31,035 bases of DNA, from the UHGV virus genome UHGV-0099061; one strand, 5' to 3'. The translations under genes were made by a program, and so were the position numbers. The notes beneath the pieces are model-generated. The model was given only the letters and a program-made list of their open reading frames with translations. It was not told the origin of the DNA and searched no databases. This stretch comes from a virus. Of the stretch, positions 8,589 to 22,569 are shown piece after piece; positions within the stretch are counted from its first letter, which is position 1, and each line of letters starts with the position of its first letter.

Positions 8589-8615
8589 CTATTTTTCGCG
8601 TAGCAACGCGTAAAC
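8589..8615 (+). promoter_or_regulatory. conserved 27-bp intergenic motif (TATTTTTCGCGTAG-N3-CGCGTAAA), copy 1, upstream of portal gene
   Basis: 24/27 identical to 20902-20928; contains direct repeat CGCGTA; sits 22 nt upstream of portal start in an AT-rich 148-bp gap. Confidence 0.45.
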
Positions 8616-8636
8616 ATGTATTCAGGAGTAAACATT

Positions 8637-13694: not shown

Positions 13695-13722
13695 CCCCGG
13701 CGCGATGCCGGGGATTTTTTTT
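13695..13722 (+). terminator. rho-independent terminator after capsid gene
   Basis: Stem CCCCGGC / GCCGGGG, 5-nt loop, followed by T8. Confidence 0.7.
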
Positions 13723-13740
13723 GTATGTGGAGCAAACAAA

Positions 13741-14127
13741 ATGGTCACTACAGAACAGGCGCGGGAATATCTTGAAAGCCAGGGTATTGACCTGCCAGAC
13801 ATTATCTTATCTTTGCTGGTGGAGCAGGCAAATAGCGTTAATGAATGCCTTGATGCCAACTATCCGGCCTCCACTGCAACATTGATTCAGCTTTATCTGA
13901 TTGGCCTGTTAGGACTAAGCCAGGCTGATAAATACGTTTCCTCGCAGACTGGGCCGAACGGTGCGAGTCAGTCATACCGCTATGTCGATTTCAACAAACG
14001 ATGGAAGGCGGCCTATTCGTTGCTTTACTCCATTGATAAACATCACTGTACAGCCGAACTGATTCCAGCAGATCCAGAAAACACCGCGCACGCAGGGCTT
14101 TGGATAGGTAAAAGTGGGAGGATGTAA
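13741..14127 (+). CDS. putative head-tail connector / neck protein (128 aa)
   Basis: ORF with GGAG SD; first gene after capsid terminator; function by position. Confidence 0.45.
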   Translation: MVTTEQAREYLESQGIDLPDIILSLLVEQANSVNECLDANYPASTATLIQLYLIGLLGLSQADKYVSSQTGPNGASQSYRYVDFNKRWKAAYSLLYSIDKHHCTAELIPADPENTAHAGLWIGKSGRM

Positions 14128-16071: not shown

Positions 16072-16770
16072 ATGATCCATGTTCGTACAGGACAATTTGC
16101 TGCCGTGGTGAACGGTAAGCGCTATGAGTTTAATCCTTGCTTTGCTGCGATGGCTAAAATCGGCAACGATAGTGAGCTTGTCGAATATTTCGCACTTATC
16201 CACGGCGGCAAATATCCATCACGATTGCCAGCAGATCCAGACCTACGCAATCGCATTCTGGCGCGGTGTTATGGTGAAATAGTTAAGACATCAATGCACA
16301 TCCTGAAATGTTGCTCAGACGACGAAATAGGCCAGTTATTGGGCGAATGCTGGTTTACTCCTTCGGGTAAGTTAAAGTTAAAGCCCGGATTAATGCCGAT
16401 CGAGGATATCATCACGCTTGCGCAGCACTGCATGTACCACGGTCTTATTGGTGATGGCCCGGAAGAAGAGTCCGGGGAAATCCCGGAAGGGGAATATAAG
16501 CCGACTTTTAACGTCCTTGAATTCGTCTATTCTGCCGTTGCTCACCTGGGCTTGTCAGAATCGGAAGCATGGAATATGACAATGACCGGATATAGGGCCG
16601 CTGTACGCGCTAAAACGCCGCCAGACGAAAGAAACGAGAAAAGCAAGCCAAACATTCACATAAATAAACGTGCTTATGACGAGCAAATGGAGGCCGCTAA
16701 AAAGGCACTAGAAAGAATGAAAAATCGTGAGCAAGAAAAGCCCGGTAGATCCGGGCGTTTTGCTAATTGA
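16072..16770 (+). CDS. putative tail assembly chaperone (233 aa)
   Basis: AAGGTGA SD; position between major tail and tape measure genes; no frameshift partner found; 3' end overlaps a convergent reverse-strand gene. Confidence 0.4.
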   Translation: MIHVRTGQFAAVVNGKRYEFNPCFAAMAKIGNDSELVEYFALIHGGKYPSRLPADPDLRNRILARCYGEIVKTSMHILKCCSDDEIGQLLGECWFTPSGKLKLKPGLMPIEDIITLAQHCMYHGLIGDGPEEESGEIPEGEYKPTFNVLEFVYSAVAHLGLSESEAWNMTMTGYRAAVRAKTPPDERNEKSKPNIHINKRAYDEQMEAAKKALERMKNREQEKPGRSGRFAN

Positions 16771-17137
16771 AATCTTTAATTGCTGTACCTGGTGAACTGT
16801 GTGTGATTGTATTGTATACAGACTTTGCCTTACTGCGATCTTTCCATTCTTTTAGGATGCAGTTATCAAACTTTGCGATAACCCTTGAAGGGGATAATTC
16901 TTCAACATCCATGTAAGTAAATCCTATCGTGCTGGTTACTGAATACCATACGTGATAACTATAATTACCGTCATGCTCGATTCTTTGTGGTTCCCCCATT
17001 ATTTTATTCACTTGCTCACAAGTCATTCCAACTTGCAAATTTTTATCAGCTAACTTAACGAAATCAGTTGATCTTGCGCACCCTGTAAGAGCTAAAGCCA
17101 TAACACCAATGAGAACCGCTTTGATTATTTTTTTCAT
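16763..17137 (-). CDS. lipoprotein (124 aa), second gene of reverse-strand pair; BamE/SmpA-like sequence character
   Basis: AAGGGG SD; signal peptide with lipobox LTGC; mature part (..LQVGMTCEQVNKIMGEP..) resembles small BamE-type lipoproteins as recalled. Confidence 0.65.
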   Translation of the reverse strand: MKKIIKAVLIGVMALALTGCARSTDFVKLADKNLQVGMTCEQVNKIMGEPQRIEHDGNYSYHVWYSVTSTIGFTYMDVEELSPSRVIAKFDNCILKEWKDRSKAKSVYNTITHSSPGTAIKDFN

Positions 17138-17147
17138 GATTTACCCC

Positions 17148-17807
17148 TTAATTCCAGTTGCAAGCGTTTTTCACTTTGTCGATGTGGTTATAAAGACCAT
17201 CAATGTTAAACACTGCTTTCTCAATGTCGCCAGCTTCCGGCACTACTTCAATGATGAATTGTTTTTCGTTAACCAGTTTTTTAATCATTGGGATGGCTTT
17301 TTTGCCGTCCCATAATCCAAGAGCTTTATAATTAGTTGACCGCCACCACTCAGTAGCTACAGCTTTGTGAACGCCGATCCGGTAGTTAATATAAGTAGTG
17401 TCCCCGGCGTCAGTTACATGGTGTGACCATGCTACGAACATTTTTGTTTTATTACCCTGGCAAGCGATTGTTAATACCGGTTTATTCTTATCCTGTGCCT
17501 TCAGTGTCGGGAAAGCATCAAGACTTCCGCTGAATTGTTCTGCTTTCACAAAAAGGAATACGTTTTTTGCGTCCTGCATATCATCTTTTCTTTCAACTAC
17601 AAGCCACTGTTTACCAGCATTTTCTTTTTCTAACTGTGCATCGTATGCGGCTTGTTTTGCTTGTTGTTCTGCAAGCCATTTAGCATTTTTCTCTGCTAAT
17701 GCTTGTTGCTCTTGATTGGTCACTATAGGCGCTTTTTCATTATCCTCATTGCAACCAACCAGACCCAATACCGCCGCAATCATTGCCACTTTTGCTAACC
17801 GTTTCAT
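17148..17807 (-). CDS. lipoprotein (219 aa), first gene of reverse-strand pair
   Basis: GGTGGG SD; signal peptide with lipobox LVGC; Gln/Ala-rich coiled-coil-like segment after the lipobox; promoter-like palindrome upstream. Confidence 0.65.
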   Translation of the reverse strand: MKRLAKVAMIAAVLGLVGCNEDNEKAPIVTNQEQQALAEKNAKWLAEQQAKQAAYDAQLEKENAGKQWLVVERKDDMQDAKNVFLFVKAEQFSGSLDAFPTLKAQDKNKPVLTIACQGNKTKMFVAWSHHVTDAGDTTYINYRIGVHKAVATEWWRSTNYKALGLWDGKKAIPMIKKLVNEKQFIIEVVPEAGDIEKAVFNIDGLYNHIDKVKNACNWN

Positions 17808-17852
17808 AACCCACCACGCTAACTTGATTTACTGACCATTCCCTTTAGCTTC

Positions 17853-17896
17853 CTTATACAAAATGGAGTCGTTGAAGTAAAGCCATTTTGTATAAA
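17853..17896. promoter_or_regulatory. perfect 12-bp palindrome TATACAAAATGG-16 bp-CCATTTTGTATA, probable divergent promoter/operator
   Basis: Seen directly; each arm gives CCATTTTGTATAA(A/G) pointing outward towards the lipoprotein operon (left) and tape measure gene (right). Confidence 0.55.
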
Positions 17897-17934
17897 ATAG
17901 ATGCACAGATCACATTTTTGCATGAGGTTAAATC

Positions 17935-20283: not shown

Positions 20284-20310
20284 CCCCGGTGCAATGCCGG
20301 GGTTATTTTT
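20284..20310. terminator. rho-independent terminator after tape measure gene (possibly bidirectional)
   Basis: Stem CCCCGG / CCGGGG with 7-nt loop followed by TTATTTTT; also lies 3' of the convergent reverse-strand gene. Confidence 0.65.
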
Positions 20311-20363
20311 CGTATTTATAAACGACCATTCCGCGCGATATATCCCCTTTCGAATATCTCGAC

Positions 20364-20618
20364 TCACTTATGAGTGCCTTTCACGCCACATAACTTGTTA
20401 TAGGCATGGTGCTCAACAATTAACCAAACCTTCAAATCTTCGCTAAACAGCCTCCAATCAAGATTGATATCCATTTTGTATCCGTAACCGTCGCGTAACT
20501 TTTTGGGGTAAACTTCTTTTCTCAGAAAGGCTTTAAGTAATTCCTTACCTTTCTTGATGATCCGGTCCTGTGCGTTTTTCTGTGCTTTCAGATTTCTGTC
20601 AATCGCTACCAGTTTCAT
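20364..20618 (-). CDS. hypothetical basic protein (84 aa), second gene of reverse-strand two-gene cassette
   Basis: ORF with GGGGTGAG SD 17 nt after the stop of the upstream 51-aa ORF; Lys/Arg-rich N-terminal half. Confidence 0.5.
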   Translation of the reverse strand: MKLVAIDRNLKAQKNAQDRIIKKGKELLKAFLRKEVYPKKLRDGYGYKMDINLDWRLFSEDLKVWLIVEHHAYNKLCGVKGTHK

Positions 20619-20635
20619 AACTCACCCCATCATCC

Positions 20636-20791
20636 TTAGTTAAGTGCCTTCAGGAAGAAGTCCCGGTATTCATCTTCTTTCGCATTCATCATGAATTGAC
20701 CGTATTTGAATGCGTCGTCGAAACCCTTAACGATTGCTATTTCCACTTGTTCGAATGCGTTATTTAGCATTACTACTACATAGCGTTTCAT
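20636..20791 (-). CDS. hypothetical small protein (51 aa), first gene of reverse-strand two-gene cassette
   Basis: Found by reading; GGAGG SD 5 nt upstream of ATG; MKRYVVVMLNNAFEQVEIAIVKGFDDAFKYGQFMMNAKEDEYRDFFLKALN. Confidence 0.4.
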   Translation of the reverse strand: MKRYVVVMLNNAFEQVEIAIVKGFDDAFKYGQFMMNAKEDEYRDFFLKALN

Positions 20792-20901
20792 TTTGGGCCT
20801 CCTTCGTTGGTACTACTTTCTTCTTGCTTTCTATATACATCTTGTTGCGTGCTATGTGAAGCCATTTTGTAAACTAGCTATAATCATTGTGACAATGATC
20901 T

Positions 20902-20928
20902 TATTTTTCGCGTAGAAGCGCGTAAAGA
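20902..20928 (+). promoter_or_regulatory. conserved 27-bp intergenic motif, copy 2, upstream of M-like gene
   Basis: 24/27 identical to 8589-8615; 31 nt upstream of ATG 20959. Confidence 0.45.
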
Positions 20929-20958
20929 TATATACAAAATGTAACTTGTGGGGGTTTT

Positions 20959-21665: not shown

Positions 21666-21914
21666 CTATAAGTTATCACGCAGATAATTAACGCCCTTAT
21701 CAGTGACGAATGAATGGTTAACCTGGTTTTCATCCGTCATGATGATGAATAACTTTTCATGTAGGTATTTCGCTTTCGGGTACAGCGTTAAACAGACCTG
21801 GTACAGTATCCCGCGCTCAATCAGCAAATCAATAAATTCGTGTTCATGATAACCGATGAGGCGGGCGGCCTGTTTCAACGTGTACACATAATCACCGTGA
21901 TTGCGCCGCCCCAT
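21666..21914 (-). CDS. hypothetical protein with helix-turn-helix-like segment (82 aa), third gene of reverse-strand trio
   Basis: ORF; segment YTLKQAARLIGYHEHEFIDLLIERGIL looks like a DNA-binding HTH; start 9 nt after upstream gene stop. Confidence 0.5.
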   Translation of the reverse strand: MGRRNHGDYVYTLKQAARLIGYHEHEFIDLLIERGILYQVCLTLYPKAKYLHEKLFIIMTDENQVNHSFVTDKGVNYLRDNL

Positions 21915-21923
21915 GTTGCCGCC

Positions 21924-22271
21924 TTATTTATCGAATGCTGAAAGGTTATCGATACAGAAATCTTTCGCCGCTTTTTCGTATTCGCGTTTTGCTTCTGGAT
22001 CGTCAGCCGGGAAACCTTTTGCGTGTATTTCACCAGGGCAAGACTGGTCCATAGAATCTGCATAATAAGCAGTGAAGCTACCATTAATATCTTTCGGGTT
22101 CATATCTTCCACCTCATCAACTATCTGTACCGGATTAGCAGCATATTTCACTGGATGGCCTAAACTACATTCAAGAATCCTGCCTTCTTCCAGGGCTACT
22201 TCTTCGCTATCAAATAATCCGAAACACTCCTTGCTACCACTTAACCACACATCAAGACTGTATTTTTTCAT
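21924..22271 (-). CDS. hypothetical protein (115 aa), second gene of reverse-strand trio
   Basis: ATG 22271 with GAGG 9 nt upstream preferred over longer track ORF (to 22373); overlaps upstream gene by 20 nt. Confidence 0.45.
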   Translation of the reverse strand: MKKYSLDVWLSGSKECFGLFDSEEVALEEGRILECSLGHPVKYAANPVQIVDEVEDMNPKDINGSFTAYYADSMDQSCPGEIHAKGFPADDPEAKREYEKAAKDFCIDNLSAFDK

Positions 22272-22440
22272 TTTTGTTAGCCTCATATTTGACAGGTTCG
22301 ATCTGGTATCCCAAAAGGCGGTCATCCTCAGCAAGTAAAAGCGCGTCAACCAATGCTTCACCCTCGTCGTCATACAGGGCGATAACCTTTTCCCTACCGT
22401 CTGTCATGAATACCGTCAACTTCCATAGCTTTTCAGTCAT
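22252..22440 (-). CDS. hypothetical acidic small protein (62 aa), first gene of reverse-strand trio
   Basis: Strong GGAGGTG SD 6 nt upstream of ATG 22440 (longer track ORF to 22560 has no SD); Asp/Glu-rich. Confidence 0.5.
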   Translation of the reverse strand: MTEKLWKLTVFMTDGREKVIALYDDEGEALVDALLLAEDDRLLGYQIEPVKYEANKNEKIQS

Positions 22441-22569
22441 AACGCACCTCCGCGCCATTTTGTTAACTATGCTTCCGTTTGAGTAAAATATACATATTGT
22501 AAAAACCGCGATCAATCCATTTTGGTATGATTTAGCGTGACGCAGATCACAGAATGACAAGGTGAGAAA

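What the first reader, a model, noticed from the sequence alone, without database searches (positions are those of the whole stretch)
17853..17896. Recurring CCATTTTGT motif marks intergenic regions, here as a perfect 12-bp palindrome between divergent operons
The 9-mer CCATTTTGT (or its complement) occurs at least eight times by eye: both arms of the palindromes at 1553-1586 and 17855-17894, then 20861-20873, 22454-22465, 22516-22524, 29901-29909 and one coding copy at 20473-20485. About 0.2 are expected by chance in 31 kb. It is usually followed by an A/T-rich -10-like hexamer (TATAAA, TATAAG, TAAACT, TTAACT, gTATGAT), sometimes as an extended TGn -10. The sites lie upstream of the early gene 1628, the tape measure gene, the lipoprotein operon, and the M-like and L-like genes. 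This fits a phage promoter or operator consensus that coordinates the accessory cassettes with the tail genes.
Basis: seen in the sequence. Interest (0 to 1): 0.6.

Follow-up and report, generated by a model that had tools for sequence, protein, structure and literature searches.

The report
Shared promoter box of mEp021-like prophages
A 9-base word (CCATTTTGT) that recurs next to promoter-like sequences in front of most predicted transcription units of this E. coli prophage family is real, strongly non-random and conserved, and probably lets one still unidentified factor switch many scattered phage promoters together.

Summary
CCATTTTGT occurs 9 times in the window (0.55 expected). Eight copies lie in the 7.7% that is intergenic (about 96-fold denser, P~1e-8).

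The window is the late half of an mEp021-group prophage. The whole prophage has 15 exact copies, including at the pL-like, pR-like and nutR2 promoters. All core-family loci longer than 3 kb carry it; 33 sister-clade loci and 10 distant relatives have none.

The word is a quasi-palindrome, (A/C)CA-WWW-TG(T/G), that usually abuts a -10-like hexamer. At four intergenic regions (three of them divergent) two boxes face each other with exactly 16 bp between them. At 17855-17894 this gives two interleaved back-to-back promoters, one for a TagO/VasI-like cassette and one for the tape measure gene.

The box's position relative to the best-conserved -10 hexamers varies. That fits a bound factor better than a core sigma-70 element. 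Copy 1578 belongs to a lambda-pR'-like promoter (box between -35 and -10, then AACGAT) downstream of a lambda-type Q gene.

The trans-factor is unresolved, because Rep, Q and the box are always inherited together. This is a new variant of a known kind (closest in design: P1 late promoters). Interest is moderate.

The parts
17855..17866 (.). Site B left arm TATACAAAATGG (9-mer at 17858-17866). Read on the minus strand it is CCATTTTG followed by the -10-like TATAAG (17858-17853), with a -35-like TTTACT (17881-17876) at 17 bp. This is the predicted leftward promoter of the TagO/VasI-like lipoprotein cassette (CDS 17148-17807, minus).
   Evidence: In relatives this arm is often ACAAAATGT or ACAAAACGG.
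17867..17882 (.). Site B 16-bp spacer AGTCGTTGAAGTAAAG. It holds the interleaved -35 positions of the two back-to-back promoters.
   Evidence: Spacer length is 16 in all family copies. Mean column conservation is 0.92.
17883..17898 (+). Site B right arm CCATTTTGTATA plus the -10 (TATAAA 17891-17896 or TAAAAT 17893-17898). This is the predicted rightward promoter of the tape measure gene (ATG 17935). It has no good -35.
   Evidence: Relatives have TAAAAT or TAGAAT, which preserves TAnnAT.
17908..17914 (+). GATCACA block about 10 nt after the -10, in the tape measure 5' leader. It belongs to a second recurring word, CAGATCACA (the CRP-consensus right half AGATCACATTT).
   Evidence: conservation 0.995.
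1553..1561 (.). Site A left ('orphan') arm ACAAAATGG. It faces the end of the upstream plus-strand genes and lies at -46..-38 of the rightward promoter.
   Evidence: It drifts to ACGAAATGG or ACAGAATGG in 11 of 17 unbiased loci.
1564..1612 (+). Site A rightward promoter, lambda-pR'-like: -35 TTGTTT (1564-1569), 17-bp spacer ending in the box CCATTTTGT (1578-1586), -10 TATAAA (1587-1592, with TGn), then AACGAT (1607-1612) followed by GCGG. It lies upstream of gene 1628-1906.
   Evidence: The lambda pause element AACGAT+GGG is from PMC4005639. The roughly 51 nt from the box to the ATG are almost invariant in 17 loci.
3820..3845 (+). Intrinsic terminator just before the holin gene (ATG 3863). It is the only plus-strand terminator predicted between site A and the lysis genes, so it is a candidate tR'.
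   Evidence: (D5).
13736..13744 (-). Copy overlapping the RBS spacer and ATG (13741-13743) of a head gene. It is conserved in mEp021 but may be held by translation signals, and there is no gene in its own orientation.
20471..20479 (+). The only fully coding copy. It is inside, and antisense to, the ParE-like toxin gene (20364-20618, minus). It may be a chance copy.
20837..20845 (.). M region degenerate left arm ACATCTTGT, exactly 16 bp from the right arm. On the minus strand it abuts TATATA (20837-20832) and faces the ParE-like cassette (first gene starts at 20791).
20862..20884 (+). M region right arm CCATTTTGT (20862-20870), then TAAACT (20870-20875), then the highly conserved TATAAT (20879-20884; column conservation 0.976), with GTGAAG (20856-20861) at 17 bp. 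This is the predicted promoter of the M-like tail gene (ATG 20959). Relative to TATAAT the box lies at -29..-21.
20934..20942 (-). One-mismatch copy (ACAAAATGT on the plus strand) in the leader of the M-like gene. It is moderately conserved (0.91).
22455..22489 (+). L region box 1, CCATTTTGT (22455-22463), overlapping a -35 TTGTTA (22460-22465). An 18-bp spacer that varies between relatives follows, then the -10 TAAAAT/TACAAT (22484-22489).
22487..22531 (.). L region second module. The degenerate left arm ACATATTGT (22492-22500) abuts the minus-strand -10 TATATT (22492-22487), with -35 TTGATC (22515-22510); this is the predicted leftward promoter of the KilAC cassette. After 16 bp comes the right arm CCATTTTGG (22517-22525) followed by TATGAT (22526-22531), which faces the L-like gene (ATG 22570).
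29901..29915 (.). Copy between the lipoprotein gene (29506-29751, minus) and the fiber gene (ATG 29949). On the plus strand ACAAAATGG abuts TAGAAT (29910-29915), with GTGTAA (29887-29892) at 17 bp, so here the box abuts a -10 in reverse orientation.
29930..29938 (-). One-mismatch copy (CCGTTTTGT on the minus strand), 29 bp from the copy at 29901.

Best explanation
CCATTTTGT is the core of a promoter box specific to the mEp021 (mEpimmI) group of temperate E. coli phages. It is a 9-bp quasi-palindrome, (A/C)CA-WWW-TG(T/G), usually followed by TA, and it sits inside or against the core of most of the phage's predicted promoters apart from the core of the main early promoter pR.

Most often it fills positions about -21 to -13 and abuts a -10-like hexamer. 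These promoters mostly lack a good -35.

At three divergent regions (tape measure, M-like, L-like) and at site A, where no gene faces left, two boxes face each other with a fixed 16-bp spacer (25 bp centre to centre). At 17855-17894 this makes two interleaved, back-to-back promoters about 58 bp apart start to start. The leftward one serves a TagO/VasI-like cassette and the rightward one the tape measure gene. Each box lies at about -17 of its own promoter and about -42 of the opposite one.

Shown: enrichment, intergenic location, adjacency to -10-like hexamers, fixed geometry, conservation, and restriction to one clade.

Inferred: the box is the docking site of one phage-specific DNA-binding factor that controls these scattered promoters together. 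I think an activator or loading factor made in lytic growth is more likely than a repressor, because the promoters are intrinsically weak and the gene-facing arms are the best conserved. In design this works like the 9-bp box of phage P1 late promoters. The factor itself is not identified.
For: Enrichment:
- 9 copies versus 0.55 expected in the window.
- 15 exact copies in the 54.7-kb prophage and none in about 13 kb of flanking chromosome.
- 8 of 9 copies lie in the 7.7% that is intergenic, P = 1e-8.

Promoter association:
- Almost every copy is followed by TAAACT, TATAAA, TATAAG, TATACT or TATGAT.
- The pL-like copy (TTGATC-N16-TAAACT) lies about 70 nt upstream of the nutL boxA. The copy at L002 23323 lies about 10 nt upstream of the nutR2 boxA (nut sites from PMC11893012).

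Geometry:
- All family palindromes have N16.
- The M and L regions have degenerate left arms at exactly N16.

Conservation without ascertainment bias:
- Boxes score 0.95-0.99 against a column mean of 0.84-0.90 in 28-35 distinct upstream sequences.
- The site A right arm is invariant in 17 loci even where the downstream protein is only 60-64% identical.
- mEp021 has the same layout.

Clade specificity:
- All core-family loci longer than 3 kb carry the word, at 1-8 copies each; only one 2.9-kb fragment has none.
- There are no copies in 33 sister-clade loci or in 10 distant relatives, which are enterobacterial except for one contig labelled Chryseobacterium.

Against a fixed core-promoter element:
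- The offset from the box to the best-conserved -10 is 0, 1, 2, 8 or about 20 bp.
- TG is at the canonical -15/-14 in only about 3 copies.
- Copies exist where no gene can be served (1553-, L002 23259-, 15776-, 10948-).

Precedent: P1 late promoters consist of a 9-bp palindrome, N4 and a -10, with no -35.
Against: - No transcription start sites or binding data exist.
- No candidate ligand was found. About 45 early proteins show no Lpa-like, HTH or zinc-finger match beyond Rep, Q and an O-like initiator domain.
- The variable box-to--10 offset is awkward for an activator that must touch RNA polymerase.
- The flanking -10 hexamers, the GATCACA block and parts of the spacers are as conserved as the box, so the footprint does not single out the box.
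- Family divergence is low (81-99%), so some of the conservation is simply common descent.
- The pL copy varies (ACAGAATGG) in many relatives.
- A T-rich tract followed by TG upstream of a -10 could by itself help sigma-70 polymerase.
Confidence: 0.5

Rival explanations
1. Intrinsic promoter element with no dedicated factor. The T-tract plus TG next to the -10 acts as a surrogate extended -10 or spacer element for host sigma-70 polymerase. The complementary A-tract (ACAAAATGG) at about -42 acts as a proximal UP-like site for the alpha subunit of the opposite promoter. N16 is then simply the distance that satisfies both roles.
For: - Three copies have a canonical TGn extended -10 (1578, 22517, 22455).
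- ACAAAATGG matches 7 of 9 positions of the proximal UP subsite consensus AAAAAARNR (consensus recalled from memory).
- The box lies at -45..-37 of the strong pR-like promoter and of the leftward L-region promoter (shared AAAATGG-A-TTGAY).
- The 25-bp arm spacing equals 59 - 17 - 17 (my arithmetic).
- No regulator was found.
Against: - Nine near-invariant positions, including the 5' CC, in 15 or more paralogous copies is far more than sigma or alpha contacts normally impose.
- TG is out of register in most copies.
- The sister clade and other enterobacterial relatives with the same sigma-70 lack the word entirely.
- Orphan copies and one coding copy exist.
- Tail-gene promoters active without control would be expressed in lysogens.
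Confidence: 0.22
2. The box is the binding element of the phage's lambda-type Q antiterminator. Site A (1564-1612) is the late promoter pR', and Q also loads at the other rightward box promoters (tape measure, M-like, L-like, fiber). The late region, segmented by terminators and reverse cassettes, would then be read by Q-modified polymerase started at several points.
For: - The Q protein is lambda-type (7UBM, E = 1e-39; PF03589).
- Q-lambda binds a 13-bp asymmetric, non-repeat site as a monomer (PMC9388147). My recollection is that this site lies between -35 and -10 of pR'.
- Site A aligns element by element with lambda pR', including AACGAT followed by G-rich sequence (PMC4005639). Relatives keep AAnnAT there.
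- Site A is the only short gap between the Q gene and the lysis genes that has a promoter-like sequence, and a terminator precedes the holin gene.
- The 51 nt from the box to the ATG are nearly invariant.
- Plus-strand, gene-facing arms are better conserved than cassette-facing arms.
- Q is one of only three recognisable DNA binders in the phage.
Against: - The same box occurs at the early pL-like promoter, antisense to rep, and at leftward cassette promoters, where Q loading would send terminator-resistant polymerase against the tail genes.
- AACGAT is found only at site A.
- The spacing from box to pause element (20 nt) differs from lambda (about 13).
- The A/T-tract orientation is opposite to that of the lambda spacer.
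- Site A is 3.9 kb from the Q gene, and the terminator is 2.2 kb downstream of it.
- Q is only about 35% identical to lambda Q, so its DNA specificity cannot be inferred.
Confidence: 0.15
3. The box is an operator of the prophage repressor Rep (CI-like), or of another repressor, distributed over the genome so that one protein silences every internal promoter in the lysogen. This would resemble the stoperators of mycobacteriophage L5 and would explain why the whole family has a single immunity type.
For: - There are three copies in the 900-bp immunity region, and they form the longest repeat shared between the pL and pR regions (D3/D4).
- The pair spacing of 25 bp equals the operator spacing used for cooperative CI binding in lambda (from memory).
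- The variable position over core promoters suits steric repression.
- Rep at 90% identity or more always co-occurs with the box.
- The family has a single immunity group (PMC11893012).
Against: - At pR, the promoter Rep must shut off, the box lies upstream of the -35 and not over the core.
- A different word, TGC(A/G)AGT together with TTGACTCG/CGAGTCAA, is concentrated in the immunity region (4 of 7 prophage copies in 900 bp) and does overlap the pR and pL cores.
- The box has no second half-site one helical turn away, as an HTH dimer needs (my inspection).
- Most box promoters look too weak to need repression.
- Cassette genes expected to be on in lysogens carry the box.
Confidence: 0.08
4. 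The palindromes act as nucleic-acid structures (hairpins in read-through RNA, terminators or processing sites), or the word is a recombination linker that marks module boundaries, rather than a protein-binding promoter element.
For: - Site A folds into a 15-bp hairpin (-20.2 kcal/mol, z = -6.3) with a GC-containing inner stem followed by AUUUUGUU. Site B folds with a 13-bp A:U stem (-13.4 kcal/mol, z = -5.2).
- The left-arm variants ACGAAATGG and ACAGAATGG keep G:U pairing (my inspection).
- Homology to other E. coli prophages begins at the left edge of the site B palindrome (query positions 729-756).
- In two contigs the gene next to site A is replaced exactly at the arm.
Against: - Single boxes and the degenerate arms at M and L cannot form such hairpins.
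- Site B has no GC stem and no trailing U-tract.
- No Rfam family matches.
- Nine bases is too short for homologous exchange.
- Structure does not explain the adjacency to -10-like hexamers.
Confidence: 0.05

Closest known systems
Late promoters of phage P1 (Lpa-dependent: '-22 box' plus -10)
   Same: A 9-bp palindromic box close to a TAnnAT -10 hexamer, no usable -35, repeated in front of many dispersed operons on both strands of one phage genome (P1 record: AAGTTACTT-N4-TACAAT and others). Late expression needs the phage protein Lpa (PMC8198154).
   Different: - The box sequence is unrelated (AAGTTACTT versus MCAWWWTGK).
- P1 has a fixed 4-bp gap, with the box centred at -22. Here the box abuts the -10, is centred at about -17, and the offset varies.
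- The box here also occurs at early promoters and as N16 inverted pairs.
- No Lpa-like protein was recognised.
- The phage here is a lambda-style N/Q-regulated siphovirus.
Lambda pR' with its Q-binding element and sigma-dependent pause element
   Same: For copy 1578 only: a sigma-70 promoter downstream of a lambda-type Q gene, a conserved asymmetric element in the 17-bp spacer, the same pause hexamer AACGAT followed by G-rich sequence, and a terminator before the lysis genes (PMC9388147, PMC4005639).
   Different: - The spacer sequences are unrelated.
- The pause hexamer is 8 nt further downstream.
- The promoter is 3.9 kb from Q, and the terminator is 2.2 kb away with about 10 small genes in between.
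- Lambda has one such site, whereas the box here occurs 15 or more times, including at early and leftward promoters.
Stoperators of mycobacteriophage L5 (gp71 repressor sites); comparison from memory
   Same: A short site repeated dozens of times in short intergenic regions across a temperate phage genome. It co-evolves with one regulator and ties immunity to the whole genome.
   Different: - L5 sites are 13 bp, strictly asymmetric and in one orientation relative to transcription, and they act on elongation.
- The box here is quasi-palindromic, occurs in both orientations and as inverted pairs, and sits on promoter cores.
- Rep is CI-like, not gp71-like.
Long divergent-promoter operators such as bioO (BirA); comparison from memory
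   Same: A 40-bp inverted repeat (12 + 16 + 12) covering two overlapping, divergently oriented promoters, as at 17855-17894.
   Different: bioO is a single locus bound by a known dimer. Here the arms also occur singly and at many loci, and no binding protein is known.

Membership tests
Sigma-70 extended -10 promoter | TG at -15/-14, one base upstream of the -10 hexamer | tested here: not met
   This register is found only at 1578 (TGT-TATAAA), 22517 (TGG-TATGAT) and perhaps 22455. In the majority class (CCATTTTG|TAAACT, TATACT, TATAAG) TG is at -14/-13. At the tape measure promoter, with the conserved TAAAAT, it is at -16/-15. At the M-like promoter TATAAT lies 8 bp downstream.
Sigma-70 promoter (general) | A -10 hexamer TAnnnT with a -35-like hexamer 16-18 bp upstream, and a transcription start 6-9 nt downstream | tested here: inconclusive
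   -10-like hexamers follow most copies. Acceptable -35 hexamers occur in about half: TTGTTT (site A), TTTACT (TagO side), TTGATC (pL and L-left), TTGTTA (L P1). None is present at the tape measure promoter or L P2. Start sites cannot be tested with these tools.
P1-type late promoter (Lpa-dependent) | 9-bp palindromic box AAGTTACTT-like, fixed 4-bp gap to the -10, no -35 | tested here: not met
   P1 boxes read from NC_005856: AAGTTACTT-N4-TAnnAT. Here the sequence is different and the gap is 0-2 bp (8 at M). The architecture is similar, but this is not a member.
P1-type late promoter (Lpa-dependent) | Presence of an Lpa homologue | tested here: inconclusive
   PHROGs and Pfam scans of about 45 early proteins named no such family. 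No direct comparison with the P1 Lpa sequence was made.
Lambda-type Q-dependent late promoter (applies to site A, 1564-1612) | Lambda-type Q gene upstream | tested here: met
   Q matches 7UBM at E = 1e-39 and PF03589. However, the Q gene ends 3.9 kb upstream, not adjacent to the promoter.
Lambda-type Q-dependent late promoter (applies to site A, 1564-1612) | -10-like pause element in the initially transcribed region | tested here: inconclusive
   AACGAT at 1607-1612 is identical to the lambda element and is followed by GCGG. Relatives have AACAAT or AATGAT. It lies at about +8..+13 rather than +1..+6, and pausing itself was not tested.
Lambda-type Q-dependent late promoter (applies to site A, 1564-1612) | Q-binding element between -35 and -10, bound by Q | not testable with these tools
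   The box occupies that position, but its sequence is unrelated to the lambda spacer and Q is only about 35% identical to lambda Q.
Lambda-type Q-dependent late promoter (applies to site A, 1564-1612) | Terminator between the promoter and the late genes | tested here: met
   Terminator at 3820-3838/45, directly before the holin gene. It is 2.2 kb downstream of the promoter, unlike lambda.
CI-type repressor operator (Rep) | About 17-bp pseudo-symmetric site with two half-sites one helical turn apart, clustered over the pL and pR cores | tested here: not met
   No conserved partner half-site lies 10-11 bp from the box (inspection). The box lies upstream of the pR -35, not over the core. A different repeat, TGC(A/G)AGT and TTGACTCG/CGAGTCAA, is the one concentrated on the pR and pL cores.
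L5-type stoperator | Asymmetric site in one orientation relative to transcription, bound by the immunity repressor | tested here: not met
   Copies occur on both strands and as inverted pairs. The box is quasi-palindromic. Binding cannot be tested here.
Intrinsic (bidirectional) terminator | GC-rich stem followed by a U-tract | tested here: not met
   Site B has only a GG/CC base and an A:U stem with a 16-18-nt loop, and the terminator scan does not call it. Site A has a GGCATTG/CAGTGCC inner stem plus AUUUUGUU, so the feature is inconclusive for that one site.

The most novel reading that the evidence does not exclude
The box is the loading or recognition site of a phage factor that acts at eight or more dispersed promoters. 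The factor would be either the lambda-type Q protein itself (multi-site Q loading in a late region cut into units by terminators and reverse-oriented cassettes) or an unrecognised small activator among the roughly 45 proteins of unknown function. That would make this an Lpa-like system that arose independently inside a lambda-style N/Q-regulated siphovirus. It could also explain why the family shows a single immunity type, since changing the regulator would require changing 15 or more sites.
Probability: 0.3. Interest if true: 0.65.

Novelty: new variant of a known kind. Interest (0 to 1): 0.42.

Why it matters
The mEpimmI phages are reported to be as common in human gut E. coli as lambdoid phages (PMC11893012). 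That paper characterises their repressor, N-like antiterminator and nut sites, but it does not mention promoters of this kind.

A single conserved box at most predicted transcription-unit starts gives:
- a map of the family's promoters;
- an explanation of how tail genes separated by reverse-oriented accessory cassettes could still be expressed together;
- a defined bait (the 40-bp palindrome at 17855-17894, or 1540-1630) for finding the missing regulator.

If the ligand is Q, it would extend the one-promoter Q paradigm. If the box is only a strong host-polymerase element, it is a compact bidirectional promoter module of practical use.

Tried and rejected
- Script (no answer; locus file not yet available) gave nothing and were repeated later.
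- A literature search for the 9-mer returned only unrelated primer coincidences. The mEpimmI paper does not mention such promoters, and the 2023 antitermination paper is not held.
- Covariation test for the trans-factor. Rep at 90% or more and Q at 80% or more occur only in the same family that carries the box. The next homologues are at most 51% and 37% identical. No mosaic genome separates them, so the test cannot be done.
- Replacement box in relatives. No alternative over-represented 9-mer appears in 10 distant relatives or in the sister clade. The sister clade has a terminator plus RBS, not a promoter, before its tape measure gene.
- Box as a -35 element. This holds only at L P1 (TTGTTA-N18-TAAAAT). 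At the other copies no -10 lies 16-19 bp downstream (inspection).
- Box as half of a 17-18-bp dyad. Flanks on either side match the expected partner at chance level, except at 17883 (CCATTTTGT|ATAAAATAG, 7 of 9).
- CRP sites as a general partner. TGTGA-N6-TCACA at 9/10 or better: 4 observed versus 1.9 expected, not significant. Kept as a side observation only.
- Sigma-54, sigma-32, sigma-28 and several host regulator consensus sequences were compared by eye from memory. None fits across copies.
- The immunity-region footprint has too little divergence to tell the elements apart.
- The 85-aa 'MarR family' protein as a Cro-like ligand was rejected. It is the N-terminal domain of an O-like replication initiator.
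- Rfam gave no match in the window.
Full report
**What the window is.** The window is the late half of a temperate E. coli phage of the mEp021 / mEpimmI group. It is 81-87% identical to MagusPhagus, mEp021 and other mEp phages. It is 99.8-99.9% identical, over the 1.3-kb stretch compared, to a prophage present in nine complete E. coli genomes. In NZ_CP030768.1 that prophage lies in abgT (about 4,283,700-4,338,400). Its early half holds:
- a CI-like repressor (Rep);
- a leftward replication operon;
- a rightward operon with an N-like gene, erf, ssb and methyltransferase genes;
- a Q gene followed by about 25 small genes;
- then lysis, head and tail genes.

The tail region is interrupted by four reverse-oriented accessory cassettes bounded by terminators: a TagO/VasI-like lipoprotein, a ParE-like toxin pair, a KilAC antirepressor set, and a small lipoprotein.

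- CCATTTTGT occurs 9 times on both strands against 0.55 expected, and no shuffle exceeded 3. It is the most over-represented non-simple 9-mer in the window.
- With a gene list built, 7.7% of the window is intergenic. Eight of the nine copies lie there: 3.34 versus 0.035 per kb, binomial P = 1e-8.
Several of its coordinates are 1-2 bases off. Its site at 22516-22524 is a one-mismatch copy (CCATTTTGG).
- The palindrome at 17853-17896 is exact: TATACAAAATGG, 16 bp, CCATTTTGTATA. The palindrome at 1553-1586 has the same 16-bp spacer.

**It is genome-wide in this phage, not a tail or cassette feature.** The complete prophage has 15 exact copies and the roughly 13 kb of flanking chromosome has none. 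The extra copies are in the early region:
- One is in the pL-like promoter on the minus strand (TTGATC-N16-TAAACT), about 70 nt upstream of the nutL boxA.
- One is inside the first codons of rep.
- One lies directly upstream of the -35 of the strong pR-like promoter (ACAAAATGG-A-TTGACT-N17-TATATT).
- An inverted pair lies upstream of ninG. Its gene-facing copy (TTGTTT-N16-TATACT) sits about 10 nt before the nutR2 boxA.
- One lies at the start of the helicase gene.

The nut sites are those described in PMC11893012, a paper that does not mention promoters of this kind.

**Anatomy of the box.** Aligning all copies shows no conservation 5' of the 9-mer and TA or TTA 3' of it. The extended consensus is CCATTTTGTAWAMT, and the following hexamers are TAAACT, TATAAA, TATAAG, TATACT or TATGAT.

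An unbiased footprint anchored on the coding starts of the tape measure, M-like and L-like genes (37-40 loci, 28-35 distinct upstream sequences) shows the box is kept. It also shows which changes are tolerated: CCGTTTTGT, ACATTTTGT, CCATATTGT, CCATTTCGT and CCATTTTGG/A. The word is therefore a quasi-palindrome, (A/C)CA-WWW-TG(T/G). The common variant ACAAAATGT is symmetric in its flanks. At the fiber gene the box abuts a -10 (TAGAAT) in the reverse orientation.

**The paired form.** A pattern search that allowed spacers of 14-18 bp found both palindromes in about 26 viral contigs, always with 16 bp. The M and L regions have the same structure with degenerate left arms at exactly 16 bp:
- M: ACATCTTGT-N16-CCATTTTGT
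- L: ACATATTGT-N16-CCATTTTGG

Read on the minus strand, each left arm abuts its own -10-like hexamer facing the reverse cassette: TATAAG at site B, TATATA at M, and TATATT at L. The one at L has a good -35, TTGATC, at 17 bp, which the consensus scan found independently.

The palindrome at 17855-17894 is therefore best read as two interleaved, back-to-back promoters:
- Leftward: TTTACT-N17-TATAAG, for the TagO/VasI-like cassette.
- Rightward: box plus TATAAA/TAAAAT, for the tape measure gene, with no usable -35.

Their predicted starts are about 58 bp apart. Each box lies at about -17 of its own promoter and about -42 of the other (my arithmetic).

**Conservation.**
- Boxes score 0.95-0.99 against column means of 0.84-0.90. 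The adjacent -10 hexamers, a GATCACA block and the RBS are equally conserved, so the whole proximal module is constrained.
- Gene-facing (plus-strand) arms are better kept than cassette-facing or orphan arms.
- In an unbiased set for site A (17 loci, 10 distinct sequences) the roughly 51 nt from the right arm to the ATG are almost invariant, even where the downstream protein is only 60-64% identical. The orphan left arm drifts to ACGAAATGG or ACAGAATGG.
- mEp021 has the same layout at the same gene junctions.

**Clade specificity.** Every core-family locus longer than 3 kb (tail tube protein at least 81% identical) has 1-8 copies; only one 2.9-kb fragment has none. All 33 loci of a sister clade (68% identical) have none, and neither do 10 tail-module relatives, which come from other enterobacterial genera apart from one contig labelled Chryseobacterium. 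The sister clade has a terminator and an RBS, not a promoter, in front of its tape measure gene. The box therefore goes with this family's segmented late region. Most of these relatives come from hosts with the same sigma-70, so the box is unlikely to be a general host-polymerase signal.

**Promoter element or binding site?**
- The offset between the box and the best-supported -10 is not fixed:
  - 0 bp at pL, nutR2-P and the TagO side;
  - 1 bp at site A and L P2;
  - 2 bp at the tape measure promoter, where relatives alternate TAAAAT and TAGAAT;
  - 8 bp at M, where TATAAT is highly conserved (column conservation 0.976);
  - at L P1 the box overlaps the -35 of TTGTTA-N18-TAAAAT/TACAAT, whose spacer varies as a true spacer should.
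- TG is in the canonical extended -10 register in about three copies only.
- Copies exist where no gene can be served.
- Nine near-invariant positions in 15 paralogous copies exceed what sigma or alpha contacts usually impose.

These points favour a bound factor over a pure core element, but they do not prove it.

**Who binds?** Only three sequence-specific DNA binders are recognisable:
- Rep: HTH_3 plus S24 peptidase domains; matches lambda CI structure 3BDN at E = 1e-20.
- A lambda-type Q: matches 7UBM at E = 1e-39; PF03589.
- The N-terminal domain of an O-like replication initiator, which had been annotated 'MarR family'.

About 45 other early proteins have no informative match.

Rep is an unlikely ligand:
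- At pR the box is upstream of the -35.
- A different repeat, TGC(A/G)AGT with TTGACTCG/CGAGTCAA, has 4 of its 7 prophage copies within the 900-bp immunity region, on the pR and pL cores.
- The box has no partner half-site one helical turn away.

Q is a serious candidate for at least one copy. Q-lambda binds a 13-bp asymmetric site as a monomer (PMC9388147), which I recall lying between -35 and -10 of pR'. Site A lines up with lambda pR' as read from the database:

| | -35 | 17-bp spacer | -10 | gap | pause element | next |
|---|---|---|---|---|---|---|
| lambda pR' | TTGACT | TATTGAATAAAATTGGG | TAAATT | TGACTC | AACGAT | GGG |
| site A | TTGTTT | CAGCAGTGCCATTTTGT | TATAAA | 14 nt | AACGAT | GCGG |

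AACGAT followed by GGG is the lambda pause element (PMC4005639). A terminator precedes the holin gene.

Against Q as the general ligand, the box is also present at the early pL-like promoter and at leftward cassette promoters, where terminator-resistant transcription would run against the tail genes.

Covariation cannot decide the question. Rep, Q, the structural genes and the box are always inherited together, and the nearest outside homologues are at most 51% (Rep) and 37% (Q) identical.

**Comparison with known systems.** The closest design is the P1 late promoter, which I read from the P1 record: a 9-bp palindrome (AAGTTACTT), 4 bp, TAnnAT, no -35, repeated before many operons, and dependent on Lpa (PMC8198154). 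The sequence, the spacing and the presence at early promoters all differ, and no Lpa-like protein was recognised. The box therefore works like that system but is not a member of it. Lambda pR' is the closest match for copy 1578 alone. L5 stoperators and the bioO operator are looser analogies that I recall from memory.

**Verdict.**
- The finding is real, and its promoter association is well supported.
- The palindrome at 17855-17894 is a bidirectional promoter module, one of four such pairs.
- The mechanism I consider most likely is coordinate control by one phage-specific factor docking on the box. I put about 0.5 on a dedicated phage factor other than Q or Rep, most likely a lytic-phase activator. 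Q and a repressor are scored as separate rivals.
- The main rival is an intrinsic sigma-70/alpha element (about 0.2).
- This is a new variant of a known kind, and interest is moderate.

Noticed in passing
window 17906-17914, 22543-22551, 29895-29903, 5671-5679; also 1531-1546, 20888-20903; L002 19870-19885, 23276-23291: A second recurring word, CAGATCACA (4 copies versus 0.18 expected), lies next to many boxes. It belongs to 16-bp CRP-like palindromes (CGTGACGCAGATCACA, TGTAACACAGATCACA, CGTGATGCGGATCACA). Relatives of site A carry perfect TGTGATCTTCATCACA or TGTGATCTGTATCACA. The flanks match the extended CRP consensus (AAATGTGATCT, AGATCACATTT). The centre is about -60.5/-61.5 from the predicted start of the far-arm promoter at sites A and B, which is class I geometry. 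Every copy contains a GATC (Dam) site, and the phage encodes an adenine methyltransferase. Genome-wide enrichment of CRP-like sites at 9/10 or better is not significant (4 versus 1.9).
   Followed up: partly
window 1564-1612 and 3820-3845: Site A's rightward promoter looks like a lambda-type pR': the pause hexamer AACGAT is identical to lambda's. However, it is 3.9 kb from the Q gene and 2.2 kb, with about 10 small genes, from the only terminator before the holin gene. The Q protein has an insertion of about 25 residues in the zinc-ribbon arm relative to lambda Q.
   Followed up: partly
window 8590-8624 and 20902-20936: A conserved 35-nt element, TATTTTTCGCGTAG(C/A)A(A/G)CGCGTAAA, with a small CGCG hairpin occurs in the leaders of both the portal gene and the M-like tail gene (D14). 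It is highly conserved upstream of the M-like gene in relatives (0.965). Its predicted folding is unremarkable (z = -1.5 to -2.5). It might be a translational operator or processing site.
   Followed up: partly
L002 14890-14985 and 15786-15824 (early half of the prophage, outside the window): Candidate Rep operators. TGC(A/G)AGT has 4 of its 7 prophage copies within 900 bp. The palindromes CTTGCGTCTTTGCAAG and CTTGTCTGCAAG lie 25 bp apart near pL. TTGACTCG ... CGAGTCAA bracket the -35 and +1 of pR.
   Followed up: partly
window 22484-22492: The -10 of the rightward L P1 (TAAAAT, 22484-22489) and the -10 of the leftward KilAC-cassette promoter (TATATT, 22492-22487) overlap on opposite strands. 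The predicted starts are about 16-18 bp apart, which is the geometry of a symmetric bidirectional promoter.
   Followed up: no
window 17829-17855 and site A right edge (L013, L032): Mosaic junctions coincide with the boxes. In ten E. coli genomes, homology to the window begins at the left edge of the site B palindrome (query positions 729-756). In two viral contigs the gene next to site A is replaced exactly at the arm. Cassettes seem to be exchanged as units of box plus gene.
   Followed up: no
window 27276-28363: The 1656-aa tail tip fiber gene (24495-29465) contains 108-bp tandem, diverged repeats (about 6 copies, 61-90% identical, D1-D3). These presumably encode a repeated coiled or fibrous segment.
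   Followed up: no
window 13695-13726, 20284-20315, 3820-3851: Three terminators share nearly the same stem sequence, CCCCGG(C/T)GC(G/A)ATGCCGGGG or a related form (D5). This suggests duplication of terminator modules along with the cassettes.
   Followed up: no
window 16763-17807, 20364-20791, 21666-22440, 29506-29751 (all minus strand): There are four reverse-oriented accessory cassettes between tail genes: a VasI/TagO-like lipoprotein plus a small BamE-like protein; a ParE-like toxin with a 51-aa partner; a KilAC antirepressor with two small genes; and an 81-aa lipoprotein that may be the superinfection-exclusion Lpp described in PMC11893012.
   Followed up: partly
window 1550-1592: The site A palindrome extends into its spacer (GGCATTG ... 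CAGTGCC) and folds as a 15-bp hairpin (-20.2 kcal/mol, z = -6.3) followed by AUUUUGUU. It could also act as a terminator or processing site for read-through early transcripts.
   Followed up: partly
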